Assembly (NCBI GenBank): GCA_031368105.1
Contig: JANLQY010000121.1
Coordinates: 7,975 to 71,974, forward strand
Length of the DNA stretch: 64,000 nt
Direction: 5' to 3'
Source: Chitinophagaceae bacterium
Lineage (GTDB): Bacteria; Bacteroidota; Bacteroidia; Chitinophagales; Chitinophagaceae
Below, piece by piece: positions 48,980-62,447 of this stretch; position 1 is the stretch's first letter; every line of letters starts with the position of its first letter. Below the pieces are notes generated by a model, which ran no database searches, was not told the DNA's origin, and was given only the letters and a program-made list of their open reading frames with translations. The translations under genes and the position numbers were made by a program.

Positions 48980-50020
48980 TTAATCCATCACTTCATACAG
49001 CAGCATCGCCGTCGATTTATTTTTCAAAATCACTTCCCCCACTTTGCGGCAGTTGAATGATTCTTTTACTTTTTGATAAGCCGCTTCATTGATGACAATC
49101 TGGCCTTCTTTAGCAGCCGATTGCAGCCGCTGTGCAATGTTTACGGTGTCCCCAATCACAGTGTAATCGAGTCTTTTCAAATTTGCCGAACCAATATTTC
49201 CAGAAATCATTTCGCCGGTATTGATGCCGATAGAAACCTGCGGTGTAAAAGAAATATTATCAGACAATGCAGGCAAACTTCTTATTTTACTTCTTACTGC
49301 AAGGCAGGCATCAATGGATCTGTCTAAATGATATTCGCCACGAAAAACGGCCATGATGGCGTCGCCAATAAATTTATCAATGTAGCCACCCTGTGCAATA
49401 ATTTCCTTCACCATCACATCAAAATAATTGTTCAGCAGTTTCACCACCACATCCGGCATTTCATTTTCACTGATAGAAGTAAAGCTGCAGATGTCAATAA
49501 AAACCACCGTTGCATCTACCGTTTCATTTGCCATTAATGAAGATTCAAACTCACGTCCACCCATAAATTTCAGCACCGTTTCATCCACATACATTTTAAG
49601 AATATTATTTTCTTTGATTGCTTTGAGTGTTTCTTTTATTTGTGCAACATGCCGGAGTGTTTTATCCATCGTCAGTGAAAGGTCTTCAAAATTGATGGGC
49701 TTGGTGATAAAGTCAAATGCACCCCGGTTCATAGCCGTACGGATATTTTCCATATCGCCATAAGCAGATACGATTACCGATTTTATCAACGGGCTTGTTT
49801 CTCCCAACCGGCTCAGCAATGTAAGGCCATCCATTTCCGGCATATTAATATCACTCAATACAATATCCACATCCGGGTTTTGCTGAATTTTTTCCAACGC
49901 ATCCTTTCCATTTACTGCAAAGATGAATTCATATTGCTGCTCCCTTATCTTTTGGCGGAATTTCTGTTTGATGAGCATTTCCAAATCAGCCTCATCATCA
50001 GCCACTAAAATTTTTGCCAT
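48980..50020 (-). CDS. Response regulator: receiver domain fused to a class III adenylate/guanylate cyclase domain
   Basis: The receiver reads ILVADDE...VLSDINMPEMDG...SAYGD...KP. The cyclase reads ATVVFIDICSFTS...IDKFIGDAIMAVF...IGINTGEMISGNIGS...DYTVIGDTVNIAQRL. Confidence 0.9.
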   Translation of the reverse strand: MAKILVADDEADLEMLIKQKFRQKIREQQYEFIFAVNGKDALEKIQQNPDVDIVLSDINMPEMDGLTLLSRLGETSPLIKSVIVSAYGDMENIRTAMNRGAFDFITKPINFEDLSLTMDKTLRHVAQIKETLKAIKENNILKMYVDETVLKFMGGREFESSLMANETVDATVVFIDICSFTSISENEMPDVVVKLLNNYFDVMVKEIIAQGGYIDKFIGDAIMAVFRGEYHLDRSIDACLAVRSKIRSLPALSDNISFTPQVSIGINTGEMISGNIGSANLKRLDYTVIGDTVNIAQRLQSAAKEGQIVINEAAYQKVKESFNCRKVGEVILKNKSTAMLLYEVMD

Positions 50021-50394
50021 CAGGATATTATTTTAAGTTTTTCTTTTAGTAAAGTAAAGTCAACCGGCTTGGTTAAAAAATCATCGGCACCCAATTGTTT
50101 GGCAATGTTATAATTTTCAGCATCGCCGTAAGCAGTAATCATCATTACAACCGGCGGGGGTTTAGAATATTTCTGTTTGATATGCCCAAGCAGGTCGAGC
50201 CCACTCATGCCCGGCATATTAATATCAGAAAGAATCAGCACTGCTTCATGCTCATGCTGGTTAAGATAGATAAGTGCTTCTTCGCCAGAGAAAGCAAAAA
50301 CAAATTTTATTTCATTGTTCTTGATCTCTTTGCGGAACCTTTGTTCAAAAAGCACCTGTACATCTTTTTCATCGTCAACTACTAAGATTTTCAT
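50020..50394 (-). CDS. Single-domain response regulator (receiver only)
   Basis: It reads KILVVDDEKD...ILSDINMPGMSG...TAYGD...TKP and is 124 aa. Its stop overlaps the start of the cyclase-RR gene by 1 nt. Confidence 0.9.
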   Translation of the reverse strand: MKILVVDDEKDVQVLFEQRFRKEIKNNEIKFVFAFSGEEALIYLNQHEHEAVLILSDINMPGMSGLDLLGHIKQKYSKPPPVVMMITAYGDAENYNIAKQLGADDFLTKPVDFTLLKEKLKIIS

Positions 50395-50410
50395 TTGCTG
50401 AATGTATGAT

Positions 50411-52669
50411 TTATATAGGTAAATTAATAATAAATACCGAACCTTCTCCTTCTTTTGTTTCTACTTTTAATTCTCCGCCGTGCCCCTTGGTAACAATATC
50501 ATAACTCAGGCTCAAACCCAACCCTGTGCCTTGTCCTGTTGGTTTTGTTGTAAAGAAGGGTTGAAAGATTTTATCCATTACTTTTTGTGGAATACCATTG
50601 CCGTTATCGGTAACTCTTATTTCAGCCCCCCTGCCTCCGCTGGTTAGGGGATTCAAAAGCCTTGTACTAACGGTAACAATTGGCTCATAACCGGGAATGT
50701 TTAATTTCTTTTTTTCATCCACCACATAAAAAGCATTGGTGAGCAAATTCAATATTACTCTTCCAATATCCTGCGGAATGATATTTACTTTTCCGATTGA
50801 ATTATCAAAATCAGTTTTCATTGTTGCATTGAAAGATTTGTCCTTTGCTCGTAATCCATGATAACTTAACCGTAAATATTCATCACACAAAGCATTGATA
50901 TCTGTTGGCTCTTTGTGTCCACTGCTGCTGCGGCTGTGTTGCAGCATACCTTTTACAATGGCATCGGCCCGTTTACCATGGTGGTTTATTTTTTCTGAAT
51001 TTTATTCAATGTCATTTGCAAGAGCATTCACCACATTCATATTGCCCTTAATTACTTCACTCCTTAATTCCTTAATTAATTCACTGTTCACTTCGCTAAA
51101 ATTATTTACAAAGTTTAATGGGTTCTGAATTTCATGTGCAATGCCTGCGGTGAGTTCGCCAAGGCTTGCCATTTTTTCTGATTGTATTAACTGAGACTGG
51201 GTTGTCTGCAAGTCTTTGATGGAACCCTCCAATTTTGATTTTTGCAGATCGATCTCCTGCTTCTGCTTTTTAAGAAGATCGTATGATTTTTGCTTTCTCT
51301 GGTTATTCCGGTAAACAATAACTCCAATTACGAGGGCAACAAGTCCAAGAGTTATCATTCCGTACAATCGTAGCTTAGCTGCATATTGATCATCTGATAT
51401 TTTTTTAGCCTGAGCAATATCATCCTCTCTTTGCTGTTCTGCTAATGCCATATTCTGGATCTGCCTGCTGTTCTCATCATTATAAAGAGTTTTATAGGCT
51501 TCAAAACCGATCTGTTGATAATGATAGGCAGAGTCGGTGTTATGTATTTTCTGAAAATACGCTGTTATTAAACTACTTGATTCTGAGATATAAGGTAAGA
51601 AGCCTTTGTCCAATGCAGTACCCAGGCATAACCTGGCATACATTAAACTGGAATCAGCCATTCCCGTTTTATTGAAATACCTAGCAAGGCCAATGGTGGT
51701 GGCACAGTAATTCAAATACTGAATTTGGACTGTTGTAAAATAGACATAACTACGACGCAGGTAGTCTATTGCCAGGCTATCTTTTCCTAATTGATCGTAG
51801 ATCATGCCAAGATCATTCAATACACCGCCATAAACTTTATCCTCACTGCCATAGAATTTTACAGCCAGTTTGTAAGCAAGATCAGCATAATGACTGGCCG
51901 AATCATTTTGCTGCTCCAATAAATATGCTTTCGAAAGATCAACATGAATGAAAATATGTATGAAGGCATTTTTTTCACCGTAATTTTTTGCCTTATAAAA
52001 ATACTCTATAGCCCTTTTAGTATCTTTTGTTTCTCCATAAGTGTGTGCTATCTGGTATAAGGCATTTTCTATGGCTGAACTGTCTTTCTTTTCTTCATTG
52101 AGATGCAATATGACAAATAGAACCTGGAGTGCTTTTGGATAATTACCCATATCAGTGCAGGCTTGAGCAAAAGTGGCCATAAATGCCAATGAGTCTATTT
52201 TATTATCACGGCTTATTGAAAGCATCTTCTCATAGTAAATGAAAAAGGAATCTTTGATAAAATAACCGCTCTCAGAGCTGATATATGTTCTCAATACAGC
52301 AATTTCCTGGTCGGCAAAATGGTGCTGCCTCGATTTATAAAGGGCTTCTTGCAGAAGTAAATGAGCGCTGTCTACATTATGATATTTTGACAATGTAAGT
52401 GCTAATCGCCTCAAACACACAATTTCCTGTTTTAAAAATCCTCTTTCACGGGCTATAGCCAGAGCCCTTTGATATACTATAAAAGCGGTATCATTATTCA
52501 GGAGATCAACCTGGTAATACCTTCCTAATTCCAGTAGTGTTGCCACTTTTATAGAATCTGAAGGAGGGTTTACGATCAGAGCCCTCAGGCTGTCAGATTT
52601 TAAATCCTGCCCGTTTAGTTTCATAAGGATAAGCAACATCATTAGTACACTCCAGGATAATTTTCTCAT
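50411..52669 (-). pseudogene. TPR-type sensor histidine kinase interrupted by one in-frame TAA (51002-51004)
   Basis: ORFs 51002-52669 (signal peptide, TPR-like repeats, TM, H-box) and 50411-50947 (N/G boxes) are in the same frame. Reading through gives [29 protein letters not shown], where intact paralogs have [30 protein letters not shown] (TCC Ser in all three). Confidence 0.8.
50625..50651 (+). repeat. Degenerate GC-rich palindromic element embedded in-frame in the kinase CA domain
   Basis: GCCCCCCTGCCTCCGCTGGTTAGGGGA encodes (antisense) NPLTSGGRGA at the position where the 52672 and 56088 paralogs have a shorter GDKV segment. Confidence 0.5.
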
Positions 52670-52671
52670 AA

Positions 52672-54684
52672 TTAAATATTAGTATTTGGTAAAAGTATTG
52701 TGAATGCAGTTCCATCTTTTTCCATCGTTTCTACTTTTATTTCCCCACCATGTGCTTTTACAATATCATAACTCAATGATAAGCCCAATCCTGTTCCCTG
52801 CCCAGTTGGCTTGGTGGTAAAGAAGGGTTGAAAAATTTTATCCAAAACTTTTTGAGGAATGCCGTTGCCATTGTCCGCAATTTTTATTTCAACTTTATCA
52901 CCGACTTTTTTTGTGCTGATTGAAACAGTTGGTTCATAGTTTTCAACTCCTAATTTCTTTTTTTCATCCACCACATAAAAAGCATTTGTCAATAAATTCA
53001 AAACTACTCTTCCAATATCTTGTGGTATAATATTTACTTTTCCAATGCTGTTATCGAAATCGGTTTTTATAGTGGCGTTGAAAGATTTATCTTTTGCCCT
53101 TAATCCATGATAACTCAATCTTAAATATTCATCGCACAAAGCATTAATATCTGTTGGTTCTTTTTGCCCACTGCTGCTTCTTGAATGCTGCAGCATTCCT
53201 TTCACAATCGCATCGGCACGTTTGCCGTGATGATTTATTTTTTCTGAATTGGACTCAATATCATTTGCAAGAGCTGCCACTTCATCCATGTTGCCCTTAA
53301 TTACTTCACTCCTTAATTCCTTAATTAATTCTGCATTTACTTCACTAAAATTATTTACAAAGTTTAACGGGTTCTGAATTTCATGAGCAATGCCGGCGGT
53401 AAGTTCTCCAAGGCTTGCCATTTTTTCTGATTGGATGAGTTGTGATTGGGTGGACTTTAGTTTATCCAGCGTTTGTTCCAGTTGGTCTTTTTGTTTTTGT
53501 ACCAATCTTTTTGCATGCTGTTCCTTCCTTTTACTGCGCCAAAAAATAAAAGCCAAACCCATTAATACAATTGCCATTGCACTAATAAAATATAATATCA
53601 TCCGGTTTTGAAAAGCAGTTTTCTGCGCTACCAGTTCCTTTTGCCGCTGCATGTCATTATAGGCCATACTTTGTGCCTGTTCTACCACTTTATCACCATA
53701 CAAGCTATCTTTTAAATTATAATAACGTACCAAATAAGAGAGTGTACTATCCGTGTTGGGTAAAGCACGGTAGTATCCGACCATTAAAGCCAATGCGTTC
53801 ATCTGCTCGGTCAAATTTTCTGTTCTTGCAATAGTATAAACCTCGGAGGCAAAGTAAAAGGCAGAATCCATCTTTCCCAATTGCATGTAGTAAGCGGCAT
53901 TGCGGGAAGCTATTCTGCTTTTCATTTCAGAATTTCGAATGGCAAAAGGCATCAGGCTCGCCTGCCGGTAATACTGTAAGTTATTTTCTTTATCATCTAA
54001 ACCACTTAAACTCAAAAGGACAATCGGTATATTAGGTTCAAGATTTTTCTCTACAGCCAAACGATAGCTTTCCAGATAATAGGCTAATGCGGAATCTTTT
54101 TTTTGATCCTGCATGAACATACGGCCTAAATTATTCTGATCAAAGCATGCAAATAAGTAATCATTGCCTTGTCGGGCATACTCCAGGGCTTTTGTCATAT
54201 AGTGCCTCGACATTTGTTTATTGTTTGGATAACAGTTACCCAAATTGTTATAAGCTATGCCAATAGCCTGTGCATTACCTGTTGCTTCCGCCTTTTCCAG
54301 CGACTCATAAATCATTTTAAGTCCCCCGGCTGTATTTCCGTTTCTGGAAGTAATAAAACCTAACTCTGCCATCAATACAGCCTCCAGCACTTTATCTTTT
54401 CTTTTCTGTGCCCCCTCTAAAATATGCCGGTGATAATAGAGAGATTTCTCAGGCGTAAGTTCGTCGGAGTTAGCTACAATATCATAAAACATTGCAATCT
54501 GGTCTGCTGGTTTTGGTGCCATCCATAATAGTAGCAACACACTATCCCGGTTAAGTAGCAAAGGATGGCTGCTTTTTTTAGACAAAGCAACAGCAGTTAG
54601 ACTATCAACATATTTTTTTGGAAAAATTTGAGCTTTTCCAATAATCGTTATCAGCAGAAAGCAGGCAGAGAAAAATAGTTTCAT
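52672..54684 (-). CDS. Sensor histidine kinase: signal peptide, TPR-like extracytoplasmic domain, one TM, HisKA, HATPase_c
   Basis: It starts [19 protein letters not shown]. The TM is [20 protein letters not shown], the H-box is [19 protein letters not shown], and the ATP-binding boxes are [15 protein letters not shown] and [14 protein letters not shown]. Confidence 0.9.
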
Positions 54685-54689
54685 ATTGT

Positions 54690-54880
54690 TTTTTAGTAAT
54701 TGGTAATTGAATAATAAATGTTGTTCCTTCTCCCTCTTTCGTCTCCACTTTTATTTCCCCGCCATGTGCTTTAATAATATCATAACTCAAACTCAATCCC
54801 AATCCTGTTCCCTGCCCGGTGTGTTTGGTGGTAAAGAAGGCTTGAATATTTTATCCAATACTTTTTGTGGAATGTATTTT
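54690..54880 (-). pseudogene. 3' remnant of a fifth histidine-kinase paralog (G2 box to C-terminus), frameshifted
   Basis: The reverse complement reads [12 protein letters not shown], then (after a 1-nt loss relative to the paralog sequence TTCCAACCCTTCTTT) [48 protein letters not shown]. Nothing homologous to the H-box or sensor lies upstream. Confidence 0.7.
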
Positions 54881-54996
54881 TTCCAATTGCAAAATTTGAA
54901 GTTTCAAAATCACCCGTAAAATAGTTACAAAATTTGCACCTGCGGTTTTTTATTTTTATTGCCGATAGCAGTTATTAATTATAATCTATCCATTTC

Positions 54997-55206
54997 AACC
55001 TCAGCACTTCGAATTTGTACTTCAGCACTTCAAAATATTACCTCACAACTACAAATCCATACCTCAGCACATCAAATTAGTTCCCCGGAAGTACAAACCT
55101 GTACTTCAGAACATCAAACTTGTACTTCGGAACATCAAACTTGTACTTCGGAACAATAAATTAGCAGTTCCGAACTACAAATTAGTACTTCGGAACTACT
55201 AATTTG
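54997..55206. repeat. Ten tandem, degenerate 21-bp repeats (consensus about TACTTCGGAACATCAAACTTG)
   Basis: Unit boundaries are at 55018, 55039, 55060, 55081, 55102, 55123, 55144, 55165 and 55186, so the period is exactly 21 nt throughout. Units at 55102, 55123 and 55144 are near-identical. Units at 55081 and 55165 carry the core in inverted form (CCGGAAGTAC, GTTCCGAACTAC). Confidence 0.9.
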
Positions 55207-55283
55207 ACCAATTAGGAGGAATTAGGTATGAAATAAACCGATTTTTTAAATAAAAGTGGGAAAAGTTCATTTTTCAAATATCA

Positions 55284-55306
55284 TAAAAAAACCGCCTTTC
55301 GGCGGT
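55284..55306 (-). terminator. Rho-independent terminator after the 154-aa gene
   Basis: On the minus strand, ACCGCC-GAAA-GGCGGT is followed by TTTTTTT. Confidence 0.8.
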
Positions 55307-55328
55307 AGATTTATAAAGTTATAAGATA

Positions 55329-55793
55329 TTATTTTTTGCGCCTGCCTCCGGGAAAACGCTCTCTTAAATCTTCATAAATAACTTTTGCCCCAGGCTCGTT
55401 TAGCTTGGCAGCTTGTTTTACATTGTTGTAATAAGACAGGCTGGCAATATATGCCTCGCTGCCGGAGAGCATCATGCTGTCGCCAATGTTGGTATATAAC
55501 TGACCAGAGAGATCATACAGCGGCTTTAATACTTCCACCCCTACGTAATCAACCTTTAATTCGGGCACATCTAAAAATTTGGGACAAAACTCCGGATTGG
55601 TATCCGAATAGCTCACCACTTTGCCTACATAGGCCACTGTTTTATCACTCATTTTTGCAATTTCTTGCCGCTCTGCGGGAGTAAGCTGCTCAAGATAAGG
55701 TGCCAGCAGGGTAATGGTTTTAATGATGTTGTCCCTGGCTTCTGCCACCACGGCTGGTGGAATTTTTAAGCTGATTTGAGAATTTTGGCTCAT
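55329..55793 (-). CDS. Hypothetical protein (154 aa) embedded in the kinase array
   Basis: It is a clean ORF with its own terminator. It reads MSQNSQISLKIPPAVVAEARDNI...LTPAERQEIAKMSDKTVAYVGKV...DSMMLSGSEAYIASLSYYNNVKQAAK. It is predicted helical and soluble. No family name recalled. Confidence 0.6.
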   Translation of the reverse strand: MSQNSQISLKIPPAVVAEARDNIIKTITLLAPYLEQLTPAERQEIAKMSDKTVAYVGKVVSYSDTNPEFCPKFLDVPELKVDYVGVEVLKPLYDLSGQLYTNIGDSMMLSGSEAYIASLSYYNNVKQAAKLNEPGAKVIYEDLRERFPGGRRKK

Positions 55794-55815
55794 AATAAAA
55801 TTGTTTTAAGTTGTA

Positions 55816-55835
55816 CAGCGGCGATATTGCCGCTG
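55816..55835 (-). promoter_or_regulatory. Stable hairpin in the leader of the 154-aa gene
   Basis: CAGCGGC-GATATT-GCCGCTG (7-bp GC-rich stem) lies ~20 nt upstream of the start codon. No U-tract follows on the minus strand, so it does not look like a terminator. Confidence 0.3.
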
Positions 55836-56087
55836 AGACTACTAATTTACAATTCATTTACAAATCATTAACAATTAGAATAAAAAATATTTTTTGCATG
55901 TTGAAAAAATGTGAATTTTTTCATTTGTAATGTTTCTGGTTCATGATAGCATTTACAGATGCTGCACCGGGTATTTCAGTTGCAGAAAAAGTATTTATAC
56001 TAACGGCCTGCATTCAGTTATCAATCTTTAAGAATTTAATCAGGGGTTTCGGCTGATAGCGGCTGAATTAAAAAAAATTAGCAGCTT

Positions 56088-58118
56088 TTATGTACAGGGC
56101 AATTGTATAATAAATGTTGAACCCTCACCTTCTTTCGTCTCCACTCTCAATTCTCCTCCATGCCCCTTGGTTACAATATCATAACTCAAACTCAATCCCA
56201 ATCCCGTTCCCTGCCCGGTGGGCTTGGTGGTAAAGAAGGGTTGAAATATTTTGTCTAATACTTTTTGTGGGATGCCGTTACCGTTATCGGCTACTTTAAT
56301 TTCAACCTTATCTCCTAGTTTCTTTGTGCTTATAGAAACAGTGGGTTCATAGTTTTCTATCTCAGCTTTCTTCTTCTCATCTACAACATAAAAAGCATTG
56401 GTGAGCAAATTCAAAACAACTCTTCCAATATCCTGCGGAATGATATTGATGTTGCCGATTGAATTATCAAAATCAGTTTTCATCGTTGCATTAAAGGTTT
56501 TGTCTTTAGCCCGTAAGCCATGATAACTTAACCGTAAATATTCATCACACAAAGCATTAATGTCGGTTGGTTCTTTTACACCACTGCTGCTGCGGCTGTG
56601 TTGCAACATTCCTTTTACGATTGCATCGGCACGTTTGCCATGGTGATTTATTTTTTCTGAGTTGGATTCAATATCGTTTGCAAGAGCTGCCACTTCATCC
56701 ATGTTGCCCTTAATTACTTCACTCCTTAATTCCTTAATTAATTCTGCATTCACTTCACTAAAATTATTTACAAAATTCAACGGGTTTTGAATTTCATGTG
56801 CAATGCCTGCAGTAAGTTCACCGAGGCTGGCCATTTTTTCGGATTGGATCAATTGTTTCTGAGTAGCCTTTAATTCATTAAGCGTTCTCTCTATCTCGCT
56901 ATTTTTCTCCTGTAGTGTTAGATTTGCTTTTTGCTTTTGACGATTGTTGCGGTAAAGTAAGAATCCAATAGTACTAAATACGGCAATCAATGCTATGATG
57001 GCAATTGTTTTTAAGTTACCCTCCTTTTCAATTCTCTTTTGTTCCTGTTGCTGTAAATCTAATTGCTGATTGAATGCCGCCACCTGGAATTCCTGGAGCC
57101 TTTTCTTTTCTATGCTGCCAACACGATCATTTAATAATGTAGCCAGTCTTAAATAAGCAAAAGAACTGTCTGTATTGTTTTGGTCATGATAATAATCTGA
57201 GATCATCCGGTAAGCAATTGTTTTTTCTTTTTCGTAGCCACCCAGTGTAAATGCTTCAATGGCTTTTTTGGCATAAAGAAAAACCGAATCTGCTTCTTTT
57301 AACGACTGATAAAGATTGGCTAACTGAAGACATGCATTTCCCGTATGCCGGGGATTATCGTGCTGCTCACTAACCTGGATGGCTTTTTGGTAATTTTCCC
57401 TGGCAATATCAGTATTTCCCATTTGCTCGTAGATCGTTCCTATGGATGAGTACGTGCCGCCTTCAAATTTTCTATCATCAAAAGTTAACTTTGTATAATA
57501 ATAAAGTGACTTCTGCTGATAGAAGAGGGCTGAATCAAACTTCTTCAGTCTTAAATAATAATCACCTATATCAGGGTATAGTCCAGCAAGGTTAAAAGTG
57601 TCTCTTACGGATTCTAAACGTGTAATTGCTTCATGGGCAATAGCAATTTGCTTTTCATAGTTACCGGCATAGAGGTACAGGCTCTCAAGGGCAGAATATA
57701 GTATGCCGATTACAATACGCCGGTACATTTGCGGTGTTTGTCCTTTTTGCAGATTCCATGTATTTTTTTCGTTAGAAGGATCTTCGGCAATTTTCAATCC
57801 CTGGTTTATTACCTTAAGTGCCTCGGGATAATTTCCCGTCTTCATGAGCGGCCAACCCATAAATGCCAACATCTCAGCCCTGTTCAATTGTAAGTCGAGT
57901 TTTTCGGCGATAGCTATACCCTTGTTACAATAATACAGACCACTATCAACGCTTATATCGTCGTATAATCCCCCCAACATTGAGTAAGCAGCCATACGGA
58001 CTGTATCATTCGCTGCAAGCTGAAGTATCAGATAGGTACTGTCTATTTGCCGCCGGGTCTGAGCTTTGCCTAATGCCGGCAATAATAAAAGCAACACTAT
58101 TTTCAGTAATAATTTCAT
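56088..58118 (-). CDS. Sensor histidine kinase: signal peptide, TPR-like domain, one TM, HisKA, HATPase_c
   Basis: It starts MKLLLKIVLLLLLPALGKAQ. The TM is TIAIIALIAVFSTIGFLLY. The core is nearly identical to the other paralogs. Confidence 0.9.
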   Translation of the reverse strand: MKLLLKIVLLLLLPALGKAQTRRQIDSTYLILQLAANDTVRMAAYSMLGGLYDDISVDSGLYYCNKGIAIAEKLDLQLNRAEMLAFMGWPLMKTGNYPEALKVINQGLKIAEDPSNEKNTWNLQKGQTPQMYRRIVIGILYSALESLYLYAGNYEKQIAIAHEAITRLESVRDTFNLAGLYPDIGDYYLRLKKFDSALFYQQKSLYYYTKLTFDDRKFEGGTYSSIGTIYEQMGNTDIARENYQKAIQVSEQHDNPRHTGNACLQLANLYQSLKEADSVFLYAKKAIEAFTLGGYEKEKTIAYRMISDYYHDQNNTDSSFAYLRLATLLNDRVGSIEKKRLQEFQVAAFNQQLDLQQQEQKRIEKEGNLKTIAIIALIAVFSTIGFLLYRNNRQKQKANLTLQEKNSEIERTLNELKATQKQLIQSEKMASLGELTAGIAHEIQNPLNFVNNFSEVNAELIKELRSEVIKGNMDEVAALANDIESNSEKINHHGKRADAIVKGMLQHSRSSSGVKEPTDINALCDEYLRLSYHGLRAKDKTFNATMKTDFDNSIGNINIIPQDIGRVVLNLLTNAFYVVDEKKKAEIENYEPTVSISTKKLGDKVEIKVADNGNGIPQKVLDKIFQPFFTTKPTGQGTGLGLSLSYDIVTKGHGGELRVETKEGEGSTFIIQLPCT

Positions 58119-58127
58119 CTGATTAAT

Positions 58128-61100
58128 TTAAGCATTTGGTAATTTGATTATGAACTCTGAACCTGCCTGTCCGTCCCGATTGCTATCGGGAAGGCCTTCT
58201 CCATCTTTACTGTTTACAGTTATTTCACCCCCATGCGCTTTTATAATATCATAGCTCAAACTCAAACCCAGTCCTGTTCCTTGTCCTGTGGGTTTGGTGG
58301 TAAAGAATGGCTGAAATATTTTGTCTGCTATTTTTTTAGGAATGCCGTTGCCATTGTCAGCAACTTTAATTTCAGCCCCCCTGCCCCCCGAAGGGGGGGT
58401 CAAAAGCCTTGTACTAACGGTAACAATTGGCTCATAACCGGGAATGTTTAATTTCTTTTTTTCATCCACCACATAAAAAGCATTTGTTAATAAATTCAAA
58501 ACAACTCTTCCAATATCCTGCGGAATGATATTGATGTTGCCAATTGATGTATCAAAATCCGTTTTAATTGTTGCATTAAAAGATTTGTCTTTTGCTCTTA
58601 ACCCATGATAACTCAACCGTAAATATTCATCACACAAAGCATTGATGTCGGTTGGTTCTTTTACGCCACTGCTGCTTCTTGAGTGCTGTAACATTCCTTT
58701 TACAATCGCATCAGCACGTTTGCCGTGGTGGTTTATTTTTTCCGAATTGGATTCAATATCATTTGCCAGTGCAGTCACTTCATCCATGTTGCCCTTAATT
58801 ACTTCATTCCTTAATTCCTTAATTAATTCTGCATTCACTTCACTAAAATTATTTACAAAATTTAAAGGGTTTTGAATTTCATGTGCAATGCCTGCAGTGA
58901 GTTCACCGAGGCTGGCCATTTTTTCGGATTGGATCAATTGTTTCTGGGTAGCCTTTAATTCAGTCAATGCATCTTCTGCTCTTTTCTTTTCTGTTTGCAG
59001 TTTTATTAAATCCTGTTCGGCCTGGCGGCCATATTGCATAGCCAGTTCAACATCAGTATACCGCTGGTAGGTAAGTTCAAATACATTTTTAAAACGCTTC
59101 AATACATTCATCGCCTCTTCATTCAATGGAGTATAAGTACAAAAACCTAATCCGCCCGGGCCTATGGAATAATAATAATAATTAAGAAAAGTGGCTGCAT
59201 CCAGTTTGGGTGCAGGCCGTTGAATTAAATTTTTCAAATGATTACGCCAGTCATCCAGCTCGGCACCTGTAACTGTTATAGAAATAAATTCTTCTTTATT
59301 CTGCCGCATTTTTTTGGCCAGCGATGCAATAAAAGGGTGACTGTTGTATAATATTTCGCCAACGAAACTGATACCATTATTATAGTAATCGTAATTCATG
59401 TAACTCCCTTTGGCATCATTGGCAATGGCAACTTGTGTGTTGCGGATATTTTCAAAACCGAGATGCTGCAGTTCTGTCAATAATGTTTTGCAAACTTCAA
59501 TCAGCTCTTCTGATTTACGCATAATCATTGCCTGCGAACGTATGCGTTCCAGCGAAGCTTCTATTTGAGCTTCTCTTGCCTGTGCTTCTGCCTGTTTCAA
59601 ATCATTAAACCGGGTATAGGTTAAATCAAAAACTTTTCCAAACCGGCTTAAAATGTCGAGTTGTTCATCTGAAAGCTGCACTGGCCCAGAGGCTTCTATG
59701 AAACCAAAATTATTGAACGAGCCCGAAATAATTGTATGTGTTGATGATAAAATTCCGGTTTTCACTGCTTCACTAAGTTGGGAAAGTTCTGTTTCATGCA
59801 GCAGCATTTCATCAATTGATTTTTTTTCATTTCCCTCCAGTACATAAACCCATTTAGGATTTTTTTCTTTCCATCCATTTATAATTGCTTTGTAGTAAGG
59901 ATGATTCAATTGTTTGATAAAAAAACTTTCTGCATTTTTTTTATCTTCTGAATTGGCCATCCATATCCTTGCTGATAAAGTACCAGGATTAAAAATCCAG
60001 ATGATACAGCGGTACAGGATTAAATTAAGTTTTGTGAGCTCTTCAAATAATACAGCTACTAATTCACTTAGCTCTTCAGATTTTTGCATGGCCATAGCTC
60101 TTGCTCTCACTCTTTCCAGTCCCAATTCTATCTGCCCCTCCCTTGCCTGCGCTTCGGCTTTTTGCAGATCGAGAAAACGGGTATAGGTTCTTTCAAATTC
60201 TATTGCAAAGCGTCGGAGTATCTTTTTTTCTTCCTGGTTTAAATCTAGTTGTACCATTACACCAAAGCAGCCATATTTCATAAATGCTTCTACATAATAT
60301 AATCCGCCACGGAAATTTTCAGGTGTTAATGTCTCAACGCCATTGATCAGTTCCTGCCAGGCGGCAAAATAATTTTCCACTCCTTCAGGTGGTACAGCGT
60401 AGGAAACAACAGGCTCATCGCTTTTCCAATCAATGAGACATTGCTTAGTAGCAGGTTCATTCCTGTTGAGCGGATAATTAATGGCTTTATTTTTAAAAAC
60501 GATTGAACCGTTTTCATTCTCTTGCCAGATAGCCCAGAAGATGTGTTGTTTTTTCTCTTCATCAGGCAGCCATAAAAAAGAAAATGCTGAATGGATACCA
60601 AGCAACTGAACCTGTTCGTGAAAAACCCGTAAGGTATCATCCAGCTCTTTTGAATGCTGCATAATCATGCTTTGTGTACGGGTACGTTCCAATGCGGCTT
60701 CAATCTTTGCTTCTCTTGCCTGTGCTTCTGCTTTTTGCAGATCAAGGAAACGGGTATAGGTTTGCTGGAATACTTTTCCAAACCGCATCAGAATGGCATT
60801 CTCTTCATCTGTATAAATAGTACCCGAAAAATTTTCGATGTACAGGCCAACATTTTCTAACAATATAGTAGATGCCCCAAGGCCCGGGCAACTAAAATAA
60901 AATTCCTTCGCTTGTTCCGTCAATCCGGGGATATGCTTTAAAAGATCCTGGTAGAATTTGTTTTTTTCTTCAAAATTCAGATGAGTGGCAAAGAAATCCA
61001 TTCCCTTTTCTTTTGCTTCATTATAACAAATTCCCCATACAGAATCGAAATAAGGAACTGTTATCTCAGCCGGAACTTCGTGCTTGTCAGCTATCCAAAA

Positions 61101-62447
61101 ATGCCAATCACTCTTTGCCTTATAATCCACAACAAATCCTGTATGTTCGATGTGGATATTTAAGTGAACGAATTGTTCATACACCACCTGAATTACCTCT
61201 TTGAGCTCTTCACTTTTTTGCATAGCCATGGAACGGCTTCTTACTTTTTCTAATGCTGTTTCAATCTTTGCTTCTCTTGCCTGTGCTTCTGCTTTTTGCA
61301 GATCAAGAAAGCGGGTATAGGTGCCGTCAAATACTGCGGCAAACCGCTCTAATAATTTCATGGTTTCTTCTGTCCTTGGGTCGGGTGTAGAAATAGAAAT
61401 TAAACCTTTTGAAAAGATCCCTGCATGTACAAACCTATGCCCTTGCAAATCTTCCTGCTTTACCGGAAGTCCGCTTAATTCACTTCTGTAATGCACATAG
61501 TCTTTCAATTCTTTACCAGTGAGATGTATAATAACAGATTTTTTTTGTGCTGCCCATGCAACAAATAGTTTATGCATTAATGTGGGTTCATCAATGCTTG
61601 CTTTATGCAACGTGTTGCCCTTCTTTCCCTGTTGTGTAATATGAAATTCAATAATACGGTATTCTTCATTCATAATACCGATCGTGATTTGATTAGGCGC
61701 TTCACCTAATTCTTTAAACTGCTGAAAAAGAATAGCGGCAGTTTCAGCCAGCTCCTCACTTTTTTGCATTGCCATGGTTCTTGCTCTCACCCTTTCTAAT
61801 GCCAATTCTATTTGTGCTTCTCTGGCCTGTGCTATCGCCAGTTCAATATCCATAAACCTGCGGTAAGCCAGTTCAAATACATTGCGGAAGCGTTTGAATA
61901 AATTAATCTCTTCTTCATTCAAAAAAACATAAGTGGATATACCCAATGCCACAGGGCCAAGTGAATACCAGTAATAACAAAGTGCTGCTGCTTTTTCTAA
62001 ATAAGTATCAGCAAACTGGTTGGTTGTTTTTTGATATTCATACCATGTTTTCACTTCTTTTCCTTCTATGAAAAGTGTAAACAGTTCTTCTGCACCCGTC
62101 AGCATTTGCACGGCAAACTTCTTTTGCAGTTCATGGTTTTTGTAATCTACTTCAGTAACCAGGAGTTTATCATGCTTTGCATAATATTCATAATTAAGAT
62201 AAGTGCCTTTGCTGTCATAGATGATAGCTGTCTGCACATTCCTGATTTCTTTTACATTGAGCAATTCCAGTTGTTGTGAAATGATTTTACAAACACCCAG
62301 CATATCGGCCGGTTCTTTCATGGATAATGCAATGGCTCTTACTTTTTCTAAAGCAGTTTCAATTTCCAGTTCCCGGTTTTTTGCTGCCAGCTCTTTTTCA
62401 AGTGCTGCATTTCTGGCTGTGAGCAATTGTTCCTGTTTACTGTTCAT
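58128..62447 (-). CDS. 1439-aa soluble multi-module sensor histidine kinase (six ~190-aa repeated sensor modules, HisKA, HATPase_c)
   Basis: There is no signal peptide or TM. An N-terminal coiled coil is followed by six modules, each ending in L.RF..VF..TY.RF and a conserved helix (LDLQKAEAQAREAKIE.ALE.VR...M.MQKSEEL). The shared kinase core then follows. Confidence 0.9.
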   Translation of the reverse strand: MNSKQEQLLTARNAALEKELAAKNRELEIETALEKVRAIALSMKEPADMLGVCKIISQQLELLNVKEIRNVQTAIIYDSKGTYLNYEYYAKHDKLLVTEVDYKNHELQKKFAVQMLTGAEELFTLFIEGKEVKTWYEYQKTTNQFADTYLEKAAALCYYWYSLGPVALGISTYVFLNEEEINLFKRFRNVFELAYRRFMDIELAIAQAREAQIELALERVRARTMAMQKSEELAETAAILFQQFKELGEAPNQITIGIMNEEYRIIEFHITQQGKKGNTLHKASIDEPTLMHKLFVAWAAQKKSVIIHLTGKELKDYVHYRSELSGLPVKQEDLQGHRFVHAGIFSKGLISISTPDPRTEETMKLLERFAAVFDGTYTRFLDLQKAEAQAREAKIETALEKVRSRSMAMQKSEELKEVIQVVYEQFVHLNIHIEHTGFVVDYKAKSDWHFWIADKHEVPAEITVPYFDSVWGICYNEAKEKGMDFFATHLNFEEKNKFYQDLLKHIPGLTEQAKEFYFSCPGLGASTILLENVGLYIENFSGTIYTDEENAILMRFGKVFQQTYTRFLDLQKAEAQAREAKIEAALERTRTQSMIMQHSKELDDTLRVFHEQVQLLGIHSAFSFLWLPDEEKKQHIFWAIWQENENGSIVFKNKAINYPLNRNEPATKQCLIDWKSDEPVVSYAVPPEGVENYFAAWQELINGVETLTPENFRGGLYYVEAFMKYGCFGVMVQLDLNQEEKKILRRFAIEFERTYTRFLDLQKAEAQAREGQIELGLERVRARAMAMQKSEELSELVAVLFEELTKLNLILYRCIIWIFNPGTLSARIWMANSEDKKNAESFFIKQLNHPYYKAIINGWKEKNPKWVYVLEGNEKKSIDEMLLHETELSQLSEAVKTGILSSTHTIISGSFNNFGFIEASGPVQLSDEQLDILSRFGKVFDLTYTRFNDLKQAEAQAREAQIEASLERIRSQAMIMRKSEELIEVCKTLLTELQHLGFENIRNTQVAIANDAKGSYMNYDYYNNGISFVGEILYNSHPFIASLAKKMRQNKEEFISITVTGAELDDWRNHLKNLIQRPAPKLDAATFLNYYYYSIGPGGLGFCTYTPLNEEAMNVLKRFKNVFELTYQRYTDVELAMQYGRQAEQDLIKLQTEKKRAEDALTELKATQKQLIQSEKMASLGELTAGIAHEIQNPLNFVNNFSEVNAELIKELRNEVIKGNMDEVTALANDIESNSEKINHHGKRADAIVKGMLQHSRSSSGVKEPTDINALCDEYLRLSYHGLRAKDKSFNATIKTDFDTSIGNINIIPQDIGRVVLNLLTNAFYVVDEKKKLNIPGYEPIVTVSTRLLTPPSGGRGAEIKVADNGNGIPKKIADKIFQPFFTTKPTGQGTGLGLSLSYDIIKAHGGEITVNSKDGEGLPDSNRDGQAGSEFIIKLPNA
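58174..58191 (+). repeat. Perfect 7-bp-stem palindrome inside the kinase C-terminal coding region
   Basis: TCCCGAT-TGCT-ATCGGGA lies within an 11-residue insertion (LPDSNRDGQAG) that is absent from the other paralogs (DGEG[LPDSNRDGQAG]SEFIIKLP versus KEGEGSTFIIQLP). Confidence 0.6.
58375..58399 (+). repeat. GC-rich mirror-arm + hairpin element embedded in-frame in the kinase CA domain
   Basis: GCCCCCC-TG-CCCCCC-GAA-GGGGGGG encodes (antisense) TPPSGGRGA. It has the same architecture as the intergenic elements at 4775, 7419, 32545 and 32631. Confidence 0.6.
59569..61868 (-). repeat. Intragenic ~53-nt repeat recurring every ~545-570 nt (encodes the inter-module helix)
   Basis: Copies start near 59569, 60139, 60709, 61270 and 61815. 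The stretches 60702-60761 and 61262-61321 differ at only 2 positions over ~60 nt. Confidence 0.8.

What the first reader, a model, noticed from the sequence alone, without database searches (positions are those of the whole stretch)
58980..62447. Soluble 1439-aa kinase made of six concatenated ~190-aa sensor modules, each closed by the same helix
Seen: after an N-terminal coiled coil there are six modules. Each ends with a conserved L.RF..VF..TY.RF motif followed by an almost invariant helix LDLQKAEAQAREA(K/Q)IE.ALE(K/R)VR...M.MQKSEEL. The DNA encoding this helix recurs near 59569, 60139, 60709, 61270 and 61815, a period of ~545-570 nt. Two copies (60702-60761 and 61262-61321) differ at only 2 positions. 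Modules 1 and 6 are clearly homologous to each other (IRNVQTAIIYDSKGTYLNYEYY... versus IRNTQVAIANDAKGSYMNYDYY...; ...YYWYSLGPVALGISTY versus YYYYSIGPGGLGFCTY), while modules 2-5 are more diverged. Inference: the modules look like small-molecule-binding sensor domains (GAF/PAS-sized) joined by signalling helices. I cannot assign them to a named family by eye. Six in series on one kinase is unusual and may integrate several ligands. The repeated DNA also makes the locus prone to module gain or loss and to assembly collapse.
Basis: partly seen in the sequence, partly recalled or inferred. Interest (0 to 1): 0.65.

Follow-up and report, generated by a model that had tools for sequence, protein, structure and literature searches.

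The report
Kinase with six hidden GAF-like sensors
A soluble bacterial histidine kinase carries six sensor modules that no sequence database names but that are predicted to fold like GAF domains. They are joined by a near-invariant helix, and they belong to a large, undescribed family whose modules are shuffled like cassettes.

Summary
Window 58128-62447 (minus strand) encodes a 1439-aa protein with no transmembrane segment. It has six ~190-aa modules followed by a HisKA/HATPase_c kinase core. Five near-identical linker helices recur every 546-573 nt.

AlphaFold2 models are confident (pLDDT 94.5 and 87.5). Their best PDB matches are GAF domains and, for two modules, the tandem GAFs of CyaB2, phytochromes and PDE6. 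Pfam, NCBIfam and PDB sequence profiles detect nothing.

"Six in series is unusual" is wrong. About 2,900 representative proteins carry the module. In the two high-scoring hit lists examined, arrays run from 6 to 17 modules, so six is the low end there.

New points:
- Modules fall into about 10-15 recurrent types. 119 of 120 relatives have different type orders.
- The syntenic ortholog lacks module 1 and has an extra module, both exactly at linker-equivalent positions.
- The same arrays also end in PP2C phosphatases or class III cyclases.
- The locus ends in a REC-cyclase.

Assembly collapse is unlikely, because the longest exact repeat is 48 nt. Ligands are unknown. I rate this a new variant of a known kind, of moderate to high interest.

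The parts
58128..62447 (-). Whole gene: 1439-aa soluble sensor histidine kinase (six GAF-like modules plus HisKA/HATPase_c)
   Evidence: ORF list; Pfam; no transmembrane segment
62328..62447 (-). N-terminal helix (aa 1-40) ending in a half linker, ELEIETALEKVR
   Evidence: Sequence. Aa 1-30 are identical, and aa 1-33 differ at one residue, in ortholog P0122
61812..62396 (-). Module 1, type C (the type that comes first in 101 of 120 relatives)
   Evidence: Profile match 242 bits; typing
61266..61841 (-). Module 2, type B
   Evidence: Profile match 257 bits; typing
60705..61301 (-). Module 3, type A; modelled, GAF-like fold
   Evidence: AF2 pLDDT 94.5; Foldseek matches to GAF domains
60132..60740 (-). 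Module 4, type F: the most conserved type (73% core identity across proteins), with invariant C670, C727, H610 and H635
59565..60167 (-). Module 5, type E
   Evidence: Profile match 265 bits; typing
59016..59600 (-). Module 6, type C (38% identical to module 1), adjacent to the kinase
61725..61859 (-). Linker helix 1 (aa 197-241), RFMDIELAIAQAREAQIELALERVRARTMAMQKSEEL
61179..61313 (-). Linker helix 2 (aa 379-423); contains one copy of the 48-nt exact repeat (61260-61307)
60618..60752 (-). Linker helix 3 (aa 566-610); contains the other copy of the 48-nt exact repeat (60699-60746). It is the only linker with ERT (LERTRTQS)
60045..60179 (-). Linker helix 4 (aa 757-801)
59478..59612 (-). Linker helix 5 (aa 946-990)
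58911..59126 (-). Last module's C-terminal helix, predicted to run into the DHp (aa 1108-1179). It is not the invariant linker
   Evidence: Sequence. Continuity with the DHp is inferred, not modelled
58668..58910 (-). HisKA/DHp with H-box HEIQNP (His1189)
   Evidence: Pfam PF00512 at 23.1 bits, below the 26.9 cut-off; H-box by sequence; NCBIfam kinase-core matches
58137..58520 (-). HATPase_c catalytic domain (DNGNG, GQGTGL)
   Evidence: Pfam PF02518 at 69.2 bits
56088..58118 (-). Downstream neighbour, 9 nt away: TPR plus transmembrane histidine kinase whose kinase core is 81% identical
52672..54684 (-). Third kinase of the cluster (TPR plus transmembrane segment), core 79% identical
50411..52669 (-). 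Fourth kinase (TPR plus transmembrane segment), interrupted by an in-frame stop codon
50020..50394 (-). Stand-alone receiver (REC) protein
   Evidence: Pfam PF00072; conserved next to such kinase clusters
48980..50020 (-). REC plus class III adenylate/guanylate cyclase: the probable output of the kinase cluster
   Evidence: Pfam PF00072 and PF00211; 67-76% identical copies at the end of the same kind of cluster in six other genomes

Best explanation
The gene encodes a cytoplasmic, probably homodimeric, sensor histidine kinase. Its input region is an array of six very divergent GAF-fold domains, of types C-B-A-F-E-C.

In the di-module model, the C-terminal helix of one module continues without a break, as one helix of about 48 residues, towards the first helix of the next. 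By analogy I infer that the six cores hang on one helical spine that ends in the DHp helix carrying His1189.

The module bodies are type-specific and conserved within a type. I infer that they bind different intracellular small molecules or cofactors. Type F has two invariant Cys and two invariant His, and is the best candidate for a redox, metal or cofactor site. Occupancy would change the packing or register of the spine and so tune autophosphorylation.

The near-invariant linker acts as a standard connector. Any module type can sit next to any other and still couple. This is also the sequence at which whole modules are gained, lost and swapped by in-frame recombination.

The phosphoryl group most likely goes to the receiver proteins at the end of the same gene cluster, a REC and a REC-cyclase. 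The output would then be a cyclic nucleotide. The neighbouring TPR kinases, which have nearly the same kinase core, would feed the same output.

Shown: the module number, the predicted fold, the linker conservation, the module typing and shuffling, the alternative output domains and the conserved gene cluster.
Inferred: dimerisation, ligand binding, the direction of signal flow and the cognate receiver.
For: Fold:
- AF2 of module 3 gives pLDDT 94.5 and pTM 0.87. All top PDB matches are GAF domains: 3k2n, 3ci6, 1mc0, 5w10, 1ykd, 1f5m, at prob 1.0.
- The two-module model gives pLDDT 87.5 with a continuous helix at residues 170-217. Type F has the same order of secondary-structure elements. Best matches are the CyaB2 tandem GAFs (E 1e-9), GAF-PHY and PDE6.

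Homology of types: hhalign of cores gives 90-99.9% probability for most type pairs.

Connector: identity between modules of different types is 62% in the linker and 16% in the core. R21 is invariant in about 1,138 modules.

Type-specific conservation: within-type core identity is 33-73%. Type F has invariant C670, C727, H610 and H635.

Input-domain behaviour: the same arrays are fused to HK cores, SpoIIE/PP2C or class III cyclases.

Module exchange:
- There are 119 different type orders in 120 proteins.
- The syntenic ortholog differs by exact one-module indels at linker-equivalent positions, while the rest is 85-99% identical.
- There is a mild excess of identical codons in the linkers, 0.57 against 0.44 expected. 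One pair reaches 0.72.

Output:
- Four kinases have cores 79-81% identical to each other, followed by REC and REC-cyclase.
- The same cluster occurs in L009, L014, L019, L020, L046 and L079.
- The gap to the next kinase gene is 9 nt.
Against: - No ligand is known, and no known GAF ligand motif is present. There is no NKFDE match.
- Pfam GAF models do not match any module, or any of the 101 related sequences scanned, at E<=1 among the 25 most frequent families. The GAF assignment therefore rests on predicted structure, with TM-scores of only about 0.45-0.6 and 7-16% identity.
- Transmission of a signal through up to 6 serial modules, and up to 17 in relatives, has no experimental precedent. Several modules could be structural.
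- The models are of monomers. Dimerisation and a parallel orientation are assumed. The CyaB2 tandem GAFs dimerise antiparallel (PMC1592074).
- The cognate receiver is inferred from gene order only.
- All sequences compared are from metagenome or genome assemblies, with no long-read check of this locus.
Confidence: 0.6

Rival explanations
1. Only one or two modules are true sensors, for example the highly conserved type F. The rest form a rigid dimeric rod that serves as a spacer, a dimerisation platform or a scaffold for partner proteins.
For: Type F is far more conserved than the others (73% against 33-47% core identity). It occurs at most once in 119 of 120 proteins, and one protein has two. 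Other types are often duplicated within one protein (CC, DD, BB, AA). Serial allostery across 10-17 modules is hard to picture.
Against: 50 of the 120 relatives have no type F at all. The other types are still recognisable across genera and families, which argues for type-specific function rather than neutral spacers. GAF-fold domains in signalling proteins are typically ligand-binding (established knowledge).
Confidence: 0.25
2. The array is mainly a substrate for rapid diversification. The conserved linker DNA promotes frequent recombination, so that populations hold many kinase variants. The exact module order in any one genome matters little.
For: 119 distinct orders in 120 proteins. Exact one-module indels between syntenic orthologs. 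Excess codon identity in some linker pairs and a 48-nt exact repeat. Linker k-mers reach 60-3,700x depth in sediment metagenomes where module bodies sit at 5-10x.
Against: Positional rules exist. Type C is first in 101 of 120, types B or J are last in 88 of 120, and A-F adjacency is enriched 2.3-fold. Linker conservation is mostly at protein level: nucleotide identity is about 57-69%, and codon identity is only modestly above expectation. This reading complements the sensor reading rather than excluding it.
Confidence: 0.1
3. The six-module order in the window is an assembly artefact: a chimera, or a collapse or expansion, at the repeated linkers.
For: The window appears to come from a metagenome. 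Public k=31 contigs of four runs break at every linker and show alternative joints there. No long-read run was found.
Against: The longest exact intragenic repeat is 48 nt, shorter than reads and than large assembly k-mers. All six module bodies are present without mismatch and at the same low depth in run X1. Modules 2, 3, 4, 5 and 6 occur in the same relative order in an independently assembled syntenic ortholog (k141 contig). Complete chromosomes of related MAGs carry arrays of 7-9 modules. The alternative joints are mostly at several-fold higher depth, so they most likely come from other genes or organisms. One of them lies at about the locus depth in runs X2-X4.
Confidence: 0.05

Closest known systems
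Tandem GAF domains of the cyanobacterial adenylyl cyclase CyaB2 (PDB 1ykd) and of PDE2A/PDE5/PDE6
   Same: Two alpha/beta GAF cores are joined by a long connecting helix, N-terminal to a catalytic output domain. These are the best structural matches to the two-module model: 1ykd at E 1e-9, then PDE6. Relatives of this family are also fused directly to class III cyclases.
   Different: Those proteins have two GAFs, not 6-17. Their GAFs are recognised by Pfam and bind cNMP through the NKFDE motif, which is absent here. According to PMC1592074, inter-GAF linkers generally show poor sequence conservation, whereas this linker is nearly invariant.
Phytochrome and cyanobacteriochrome photosensory modules (PAS-GAF-PHY; multi-GAF cyanobacteriochrome kinases)
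   Same: GAF-fold domains strung on a helical spine that continues into a histidine-kinase DHp. They are strong structural matches (8w26, 5c5k, 6ndo). From general knowledge, cyanobacteriochromes can carry several GAFs in series.
   Different: No PAS domain or PHY tongue was detected. No conserved bilin-binding Cys context was tested or seen. The lineage is Bacteroidota/Ignavibacteriota rather than cyanobacteria. The modules are invisible to Pfam GAF models.
Signalling helix (S-helix) of Anantharaman, Balaji and Aravind 2006 (PMC1592074)
   Same: A strongly conserved helical segment of about 40 residues lying between two signalling domains, with charged residues and an E-R-x-R core (LERVR). 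One linker in this protein, and the linker before type F modules in general, reads ERT.
   Different: The defining ERT signature is not met in general. The third position is V in 87% and T in 4% of about 1,138 linkers. Here the helix is continuous with the GAF terminal helices rather than a separate module.
Multi-PAS or multi-GAF soluble histidine kinases in general (for example KinA-type multi-PAS kinases)
   Same: Cytoplasmic kinases with several small-molecule-binding domains in series ahead of DHp-CA (established knowledge).
   Different: Here there are far more modules. There is a fixed vocabulary of module types, a standardised connector, and near-unique module orders from protein to protein.

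Membership tests
GAF domain (fold level) | Alpha/beta fold with a central antiparallel sheet of about six strands, N- and C-terminal helices packed on one face, and structural similarity to solved GAF domains | tested here: met
   The AF2 model (pLDDT 94.5) has the order H-H-E-E-E-H-E-H-H-E-E-H. Twenty-one of the 23 Foldseek PDB hits with E<=1e-3 are GAF domains or GAF-containing phytochrome/PDE modules, at prob 0.99-1.0 and TM 0.45-0.6. This rests on a predicted, not a solved, structure.
GAF domain (sequence families Pfam GAF, GAF_2, GAF_3) | Match to a Pfam GAF profile at or near the gathering score | tested here: not met
   No GAF family at E<=1 for the full protein. None among the 25 most frequent families for the 101 sequences of alignment A2, which are one window module and 100 related proteins. 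Only 2 of 120 relatives carry a precomputed PF13185 hit. PDB profile searches gave no GAF hits.
cNMP-binding GAF (PDE/CyaB type) | NKFDE motif in the binding pocket | tested here: not met
   No NK...F...DE pattern anywhere in the protein. It is also absent from the family consensus.
Any GAF-type sensor | Binds a small ligand or cofactor in the pocket | not testable with these tools
   There is only indirect support: type-specific conservation, and invariant Cys and His in type F.
HisKA-type sensor histidine kinase | DHp with an H-box histidine, plus a GHKL ATPase domain with N, G1 and G2 boxes | tested here: met
   HATPase_c at 69.2 bits against a 26.4 cut-off. HisKA at 23.1 bits is just under its 26.9 cut-off, but the H-box HEIQNP (His1189), DNGNG and GQGTGL are all present. 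NCBIfam kinase-core alignments reach E 3e-42.
S-helix (PMC1592074) | A parallel coiled coil of about 40 residues between signalling domains, with a conserved ERT signature in the central heptad | tested here: not met
   Length and position fit. The signature is E-[RK]-V-R, with V at 87% and T at 4%. The paper states that non-polar residues are discriminated against at the T position.
Tandem-GAF architecture (CyaB2, PDE) | Consecutive GAF cores joined by one long helix | tested here: met
   Continuous helix at residues 170-217 of the di-module model. 1ykd is the top Foldseek hit at E 1e-9.
Two-component pathway with the REC-cyclase as partner | Phosphotransfer from this kinase to the REC proteins encoded at 48980-50394 | not testable with these tools
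   There is only genomic association: the same kinase cluster plus REC plus REC-cyclase occurs in six other genomes.

The most novel reading that the evidence does not exclude
These arrays are a previously unrecognised combinatorial sensing system of Chitinophagaceae and their relatives. A vocabulary of about 10-15 ligand-specific GAF-like cassettes has a standardised, near-invariant connector helix. Cassettes are reshuffled by in-frame recombination to give each kinase, phosphatase or cyclase its own logic for integrating many intracellular signals. This would be a natural plug-and-play architecture for multi-input signalling.
Probability: 0.3. Interest if true: 0.8.

Novelty: new variant of a known kind. 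Interest (0 to 1): 0.62.

Why it matters
A domain family present in about 2,900 representative protein clusters, and often making up more than 80% of 1,400-3,900-aa signalling proteins, currently has no Pfam or NCBIfam model. Its carriers are annotated only as 'ATP-binding protein' or 'hypothetical'. They belong to abundant soil, sediment and wastewater Bacteroidota and to Ignavibacteriota.

Recognising the modules as GAF-fold cassettes with a universal connector has three consequences:
- It allows proper annotation.
- It offers a natural test bed for how signals pass through many serial sensor domains along a helical spine.
- It suggests ready-made, mutually compatible parts for engineering multi-input kinases.

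The exact one-module differences between orthologs show domain shuffling caught in the act.

Tried and rejected
- Pfam and NCBIfam scans of the whole protein found only the kinase core. The weak N-terminal hits (PhiKZ_VTX, DUF3587, DCC1-like, PPDK_N) are all far below their cut-offs. Those that recur across the related sequences (DCC1-like, PhiKZ_VTX) do so in many sequences regardless of module type, which points to the shared helical linker, so I treat them as spurious.
- PDB sequence-profile searches gave nothing. A1 gave 0 hits. A2 gave only chance hits at E about 1.
- Tandem Repeats Finder does not see the array, because the copies are too diverged.
- A megablast search against plasmids found no match.
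- S-helix membership was rejected on the ERT test.
- cNMP-binding GAF was rejected on the NKFDE test.
- A first attempt at a two-module alignment from short fragments (A3) put most fragments on module 3 and was not used. It was replaced by A4, built from real A-F module pairs.
- Logan contigs could not confirm the module order, because k=31 contigs break at each linker. No Nanopore run was found.
- Four literature searches found no description of this family.
- The idea that type F has a different fold, prompted by low hhalign probabilities, was rejected after the di-module model showed the same topology.

Full report
**1. What is there**

The window holds a 4,320-nt ORF on the minus strand (58128..62447) encoding 1,439 aa. 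Pfam recognises only the C-terminus: HATPase_c at aa 1310-1437 (69 bits), and HisKA at aa 1180-1260 (23 bits, just under its cut-off). NCBIfam models align only to aa ~1125-1438, the kinase core and the helix leading into it. The H-box HEIQNP (His1189), DNGNG and GQGTGL are present. Residues 1-1150 have no credible hit in Pfam, NCBIfam or PDB sequence profiles. No 19-residue window exceeds a hydropathy of 1.3, so the protein is soluble. The neighbouring kinases have clear transmembrane segments.

**2. The repeat**

A profile built from the protein's own six segments finds six full-length matches of 232-265 bits each, and nothing else in the 64-kb window.

Each module starts with the second half of a conserved helix (IE.ALE.VR...M.M..SEEL). 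It ends with L.RF..VF..TY.RF.DL..AEAQAREA. Five complete linker helices therefore lie between modules, a half linker sits at the N-terminus, and a different helix follows module 6.

DNA repeat families have spacings of 546-573 nt. The longest exact repeat is 48 nt. Module cores are unrelated at BLASTP level, except module 1 against module 6 (38%).

**3. The fold**

With an alignment of 100 related proteins, AlphaFold2 models module 3 (aa 378-592) at pLDDT 94.5 and pTM 0.87. The elements are a 29-residue helix, a short break, a second helix, six strands interleaved with three helices, and a 45-residue C-terminal helix.

Foldseek against the PDB returns GAF domains almost exclusively. They include 3k2n, 3ci6, PDE2A 1mc0, Lcd1 5w10, CyaB2 1ykd and YKG9 1f5m, at E 4e-5 to 1e-3, prob 1.0, TM 0.45-0.6 and 7-16% identity.

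A two-module model (modules 3-4, pLDDT 87.5) shows a single 48-residue helix joining the two cores. It gives module 4 the same topology. Its best matches are the CyaB2 tandem GAFs (E 1e-9), GAF-PHY modules and PDE6.

Profile-profile comparison of the cores of ten module types gives 90-99.9% probability for most pairs. Type F is the outlier. The model shows that type F is nevertheless the same fold.

The modules are therefore divergent GAF-fold domains that sequence models do not detect. This rests on predicted structures.

**4. The family**

- A word-indexed search with the full protein gives 3,610 hits at E<=1e-10. The best 120 are kinases of 1,400-2,500 aa with 6-13 modules, most often 10.
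- An exhaustive profile search of 1.84 billion representatives gives 2,899 proteins at E<=1e-3, with up to 17 modules in a 3,880-aa protein.
- Six is the smallest count in either list. Both lists are ranked by score, which favours long arrays.
- Carriers are Chitinophagaceae (Ferruginibacter, Terrimonas, Segetibacter, Hanamia, Puia, Lacibacter), other Sphingobacteriia and Saprospiraceae, Cyclobacteriaceae and Ignavibacteriales. They include complete long-read chromosomes.
- The closest match to module 1 is in Ferruginibacter MAGs, at 80%.
- Public runs holding the window's sequence are freshwater-sediment metagenomes.
- Among the high-scoring proteins, some arrays end not in a kinase but in a SpoIIE/PP2C phosphatase or a class III nucleotide cyclase. 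This is the usual behaviour of an input module.

**5. Module vocabulary and shuffling**

1,138 modules from 120 proteins cluster into about 10-15 recurrent types. The window protein reads C-B-A-F-E-C.

| Comparison | Core identity | Linker identity |
|---|---|---|
| Between types | 16% | 62% |
| Within types | 33-73% | 63-83% |

In the linker, R21 is invariant, M27 is 99% conserved and E18 97%.

119 of the 120 proteins have different type orders, yet there are rules:
- Type C is first in 101 of 120.
- Types B or J are last in 88 of 120.
- Type F occurs at most once in 119 of 120.
- A-F adjacency is enriched 2.3-fold.

The nearest relative, P0122 (1,428 aa), sits at the same locus, with an amino-acid permease upstream. 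It shares the first 33 residues with one substitution. It lacks exactly module 1 (window aa 36-219). It carries an extra 189-aa type D module inserted exactly between equivalent linker positions. It is otherwise 85-99% identical.

At DNA level the linkers show only a modest excess of shared codons, 0.57 against 0.44 expected, with one pair at 0.72. Conservation is therefore mainly selective, with occasional recombination.

**6. Assembly question**

Logan k=31 contigs from four metagenome runs reproduce each module body. In run X1 they do so without mismatch, at an even depth of about 7-8. They break at every linker, where depth jumps to 60-3,700x because many genes in the community share those k-mers. 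This neither proves nor disproves the order.

The following make collapse or chimerism unlikely:
- The exact repeat is only 48 nt.
- The module bodies sit at equal depth.
- The independently assembled ortholog has the same relative order for five modules.
- Related MAG chromosomes carry arrays of 7-9 modules.

No long-read run could be found.

**7. Context**

On the same strand, 9 nt downstream, lies a TPR-transmembrane kinase whose core is 81% identical. Two more follow, one of them broken by an in-frame stop. Then come a small REC and a REC-class III cyclase. Clusters of such kinases followed by REC and REC-cyclase (67-87% identical) recur in six other genomes.

Some relatives fuse the array directly to a cyclase. 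Together these points suggest that the pathway's output is a cyclic nucleotide.

**8. Mechanism (inferred)**

I propose a dimeric rod of GAF-like cores on a helical spine. Type-specific pockets sense different intracellular ligands or cofactor states. Type F, with invariant C670, C727, H610 and H635, is the prime candidate for a redox, metal or cofactor site. Conformational changes would travel along the standardised connector into the DHp and set kinase activity towards the REC-cyclase.

Rivals:
- Only one or two modules sense and the rest are scaffold.
- The array is mainly a diversification device.
- The array is an assembly artefact (unlikely).

**9. Comparison with known systems**

The architecture works like tandem-GAF regulators (CyaB2, PDE2/5/6) and like phytochrome GAF-PHY spines. 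It differs in four ways:
- The number of modules.
- The lack of any Pfam GAF signal and of the NKFDE motif.
- The fixed module vocabulary.
- The near-invariant connector. Inter-GAF linkers are described as poorly conserved in PMC1592074.

The linker resembles an S-helix in length and position but fails the ERT test, with V at 87%. Four full-text searches found no description of the family.

**10. Verdict**

The fold guess and the recombination guess were right. The rarity claim and the assembly worry are not supported. I rate this a new variant of a known kind, with an interest score of about 0.6.

Noticed in passing
window 50411-52669 (-), stop codon between 50948 and 51001: The fourth TPR-transmembrane histidine kinase of the cluster is split by a single in-frame stop codon. 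It reads ...[12 protein letters not shown], where the paralogs have Ser. This is either a pseudogene or a sequencing error.
   Followed up: partly
window 48980-58118 (-): Three further kinases have TPR plus transmembrane inputs and kinase cores 79-81% identical to the multi-GAF kinase. A REC and a REC-class III cyclase follow. This many-kinases-to-one-cyclase cluster is conserved in at least six other genomes (L009, L014, L019, L020, L046, L079).
   Followed up: partly
window 55329-55793 (-): A 154-aa ORF with no Pfam match lies between the second and third kinases. Its role is unknown.
   Followed up: no
window 60132-60740 (-), module 4 (type F): Type F modules are unusually conserved, at 73% core identity across proteins whose other modules share 33-47%. 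They have two invariant Cys (C670, C727) and two invariant His (H610, H635), which suggests a metal, cofactor or redox site.
   Followed up: partly
relatives P0123, P0125, P0126, P0142 and others; P0153, P0194: Many longer relatives carry an N-terminal SnoaL/NTF2-like domain (PF13474, PF14534) of about 160 aa before the first module. A few carry TPR repeats instead. The window protein has neither.
   Followed up: no
one search hits such as P0032 and P0078 (same 1.83-Mb contig), P0010, P0076: Many database 'hypothetical proteins' of 250-350 aa are fragments consisting of a partial, a full and a partial module, found inside large contigs. They are probably array genes broken by frameshifts or gene-calling errors. 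The family is therefore under-annotated and fragmented in public data.
   Followed up: partly
window 58236-58971 and the linker-coding segments, in metagenome runs X1-X4: The kinase-core DNA and the linker DNA reach a k-mer depth of hundreds to thousands where the unique module bodies have 5-10. The sediment communities must hold very many paralogous or related genes sharing these segments.
   Followed up: no
L081 15613-17964 (-), next to the ortholog P0122: The orthologous locus carries a Ser/Thr protein kinase fused to a LANC-like domain, and a SnoaL_3-HisKA gene split from its HATPase part. These are absent at the equivalent position of the window.
   Followed up: no
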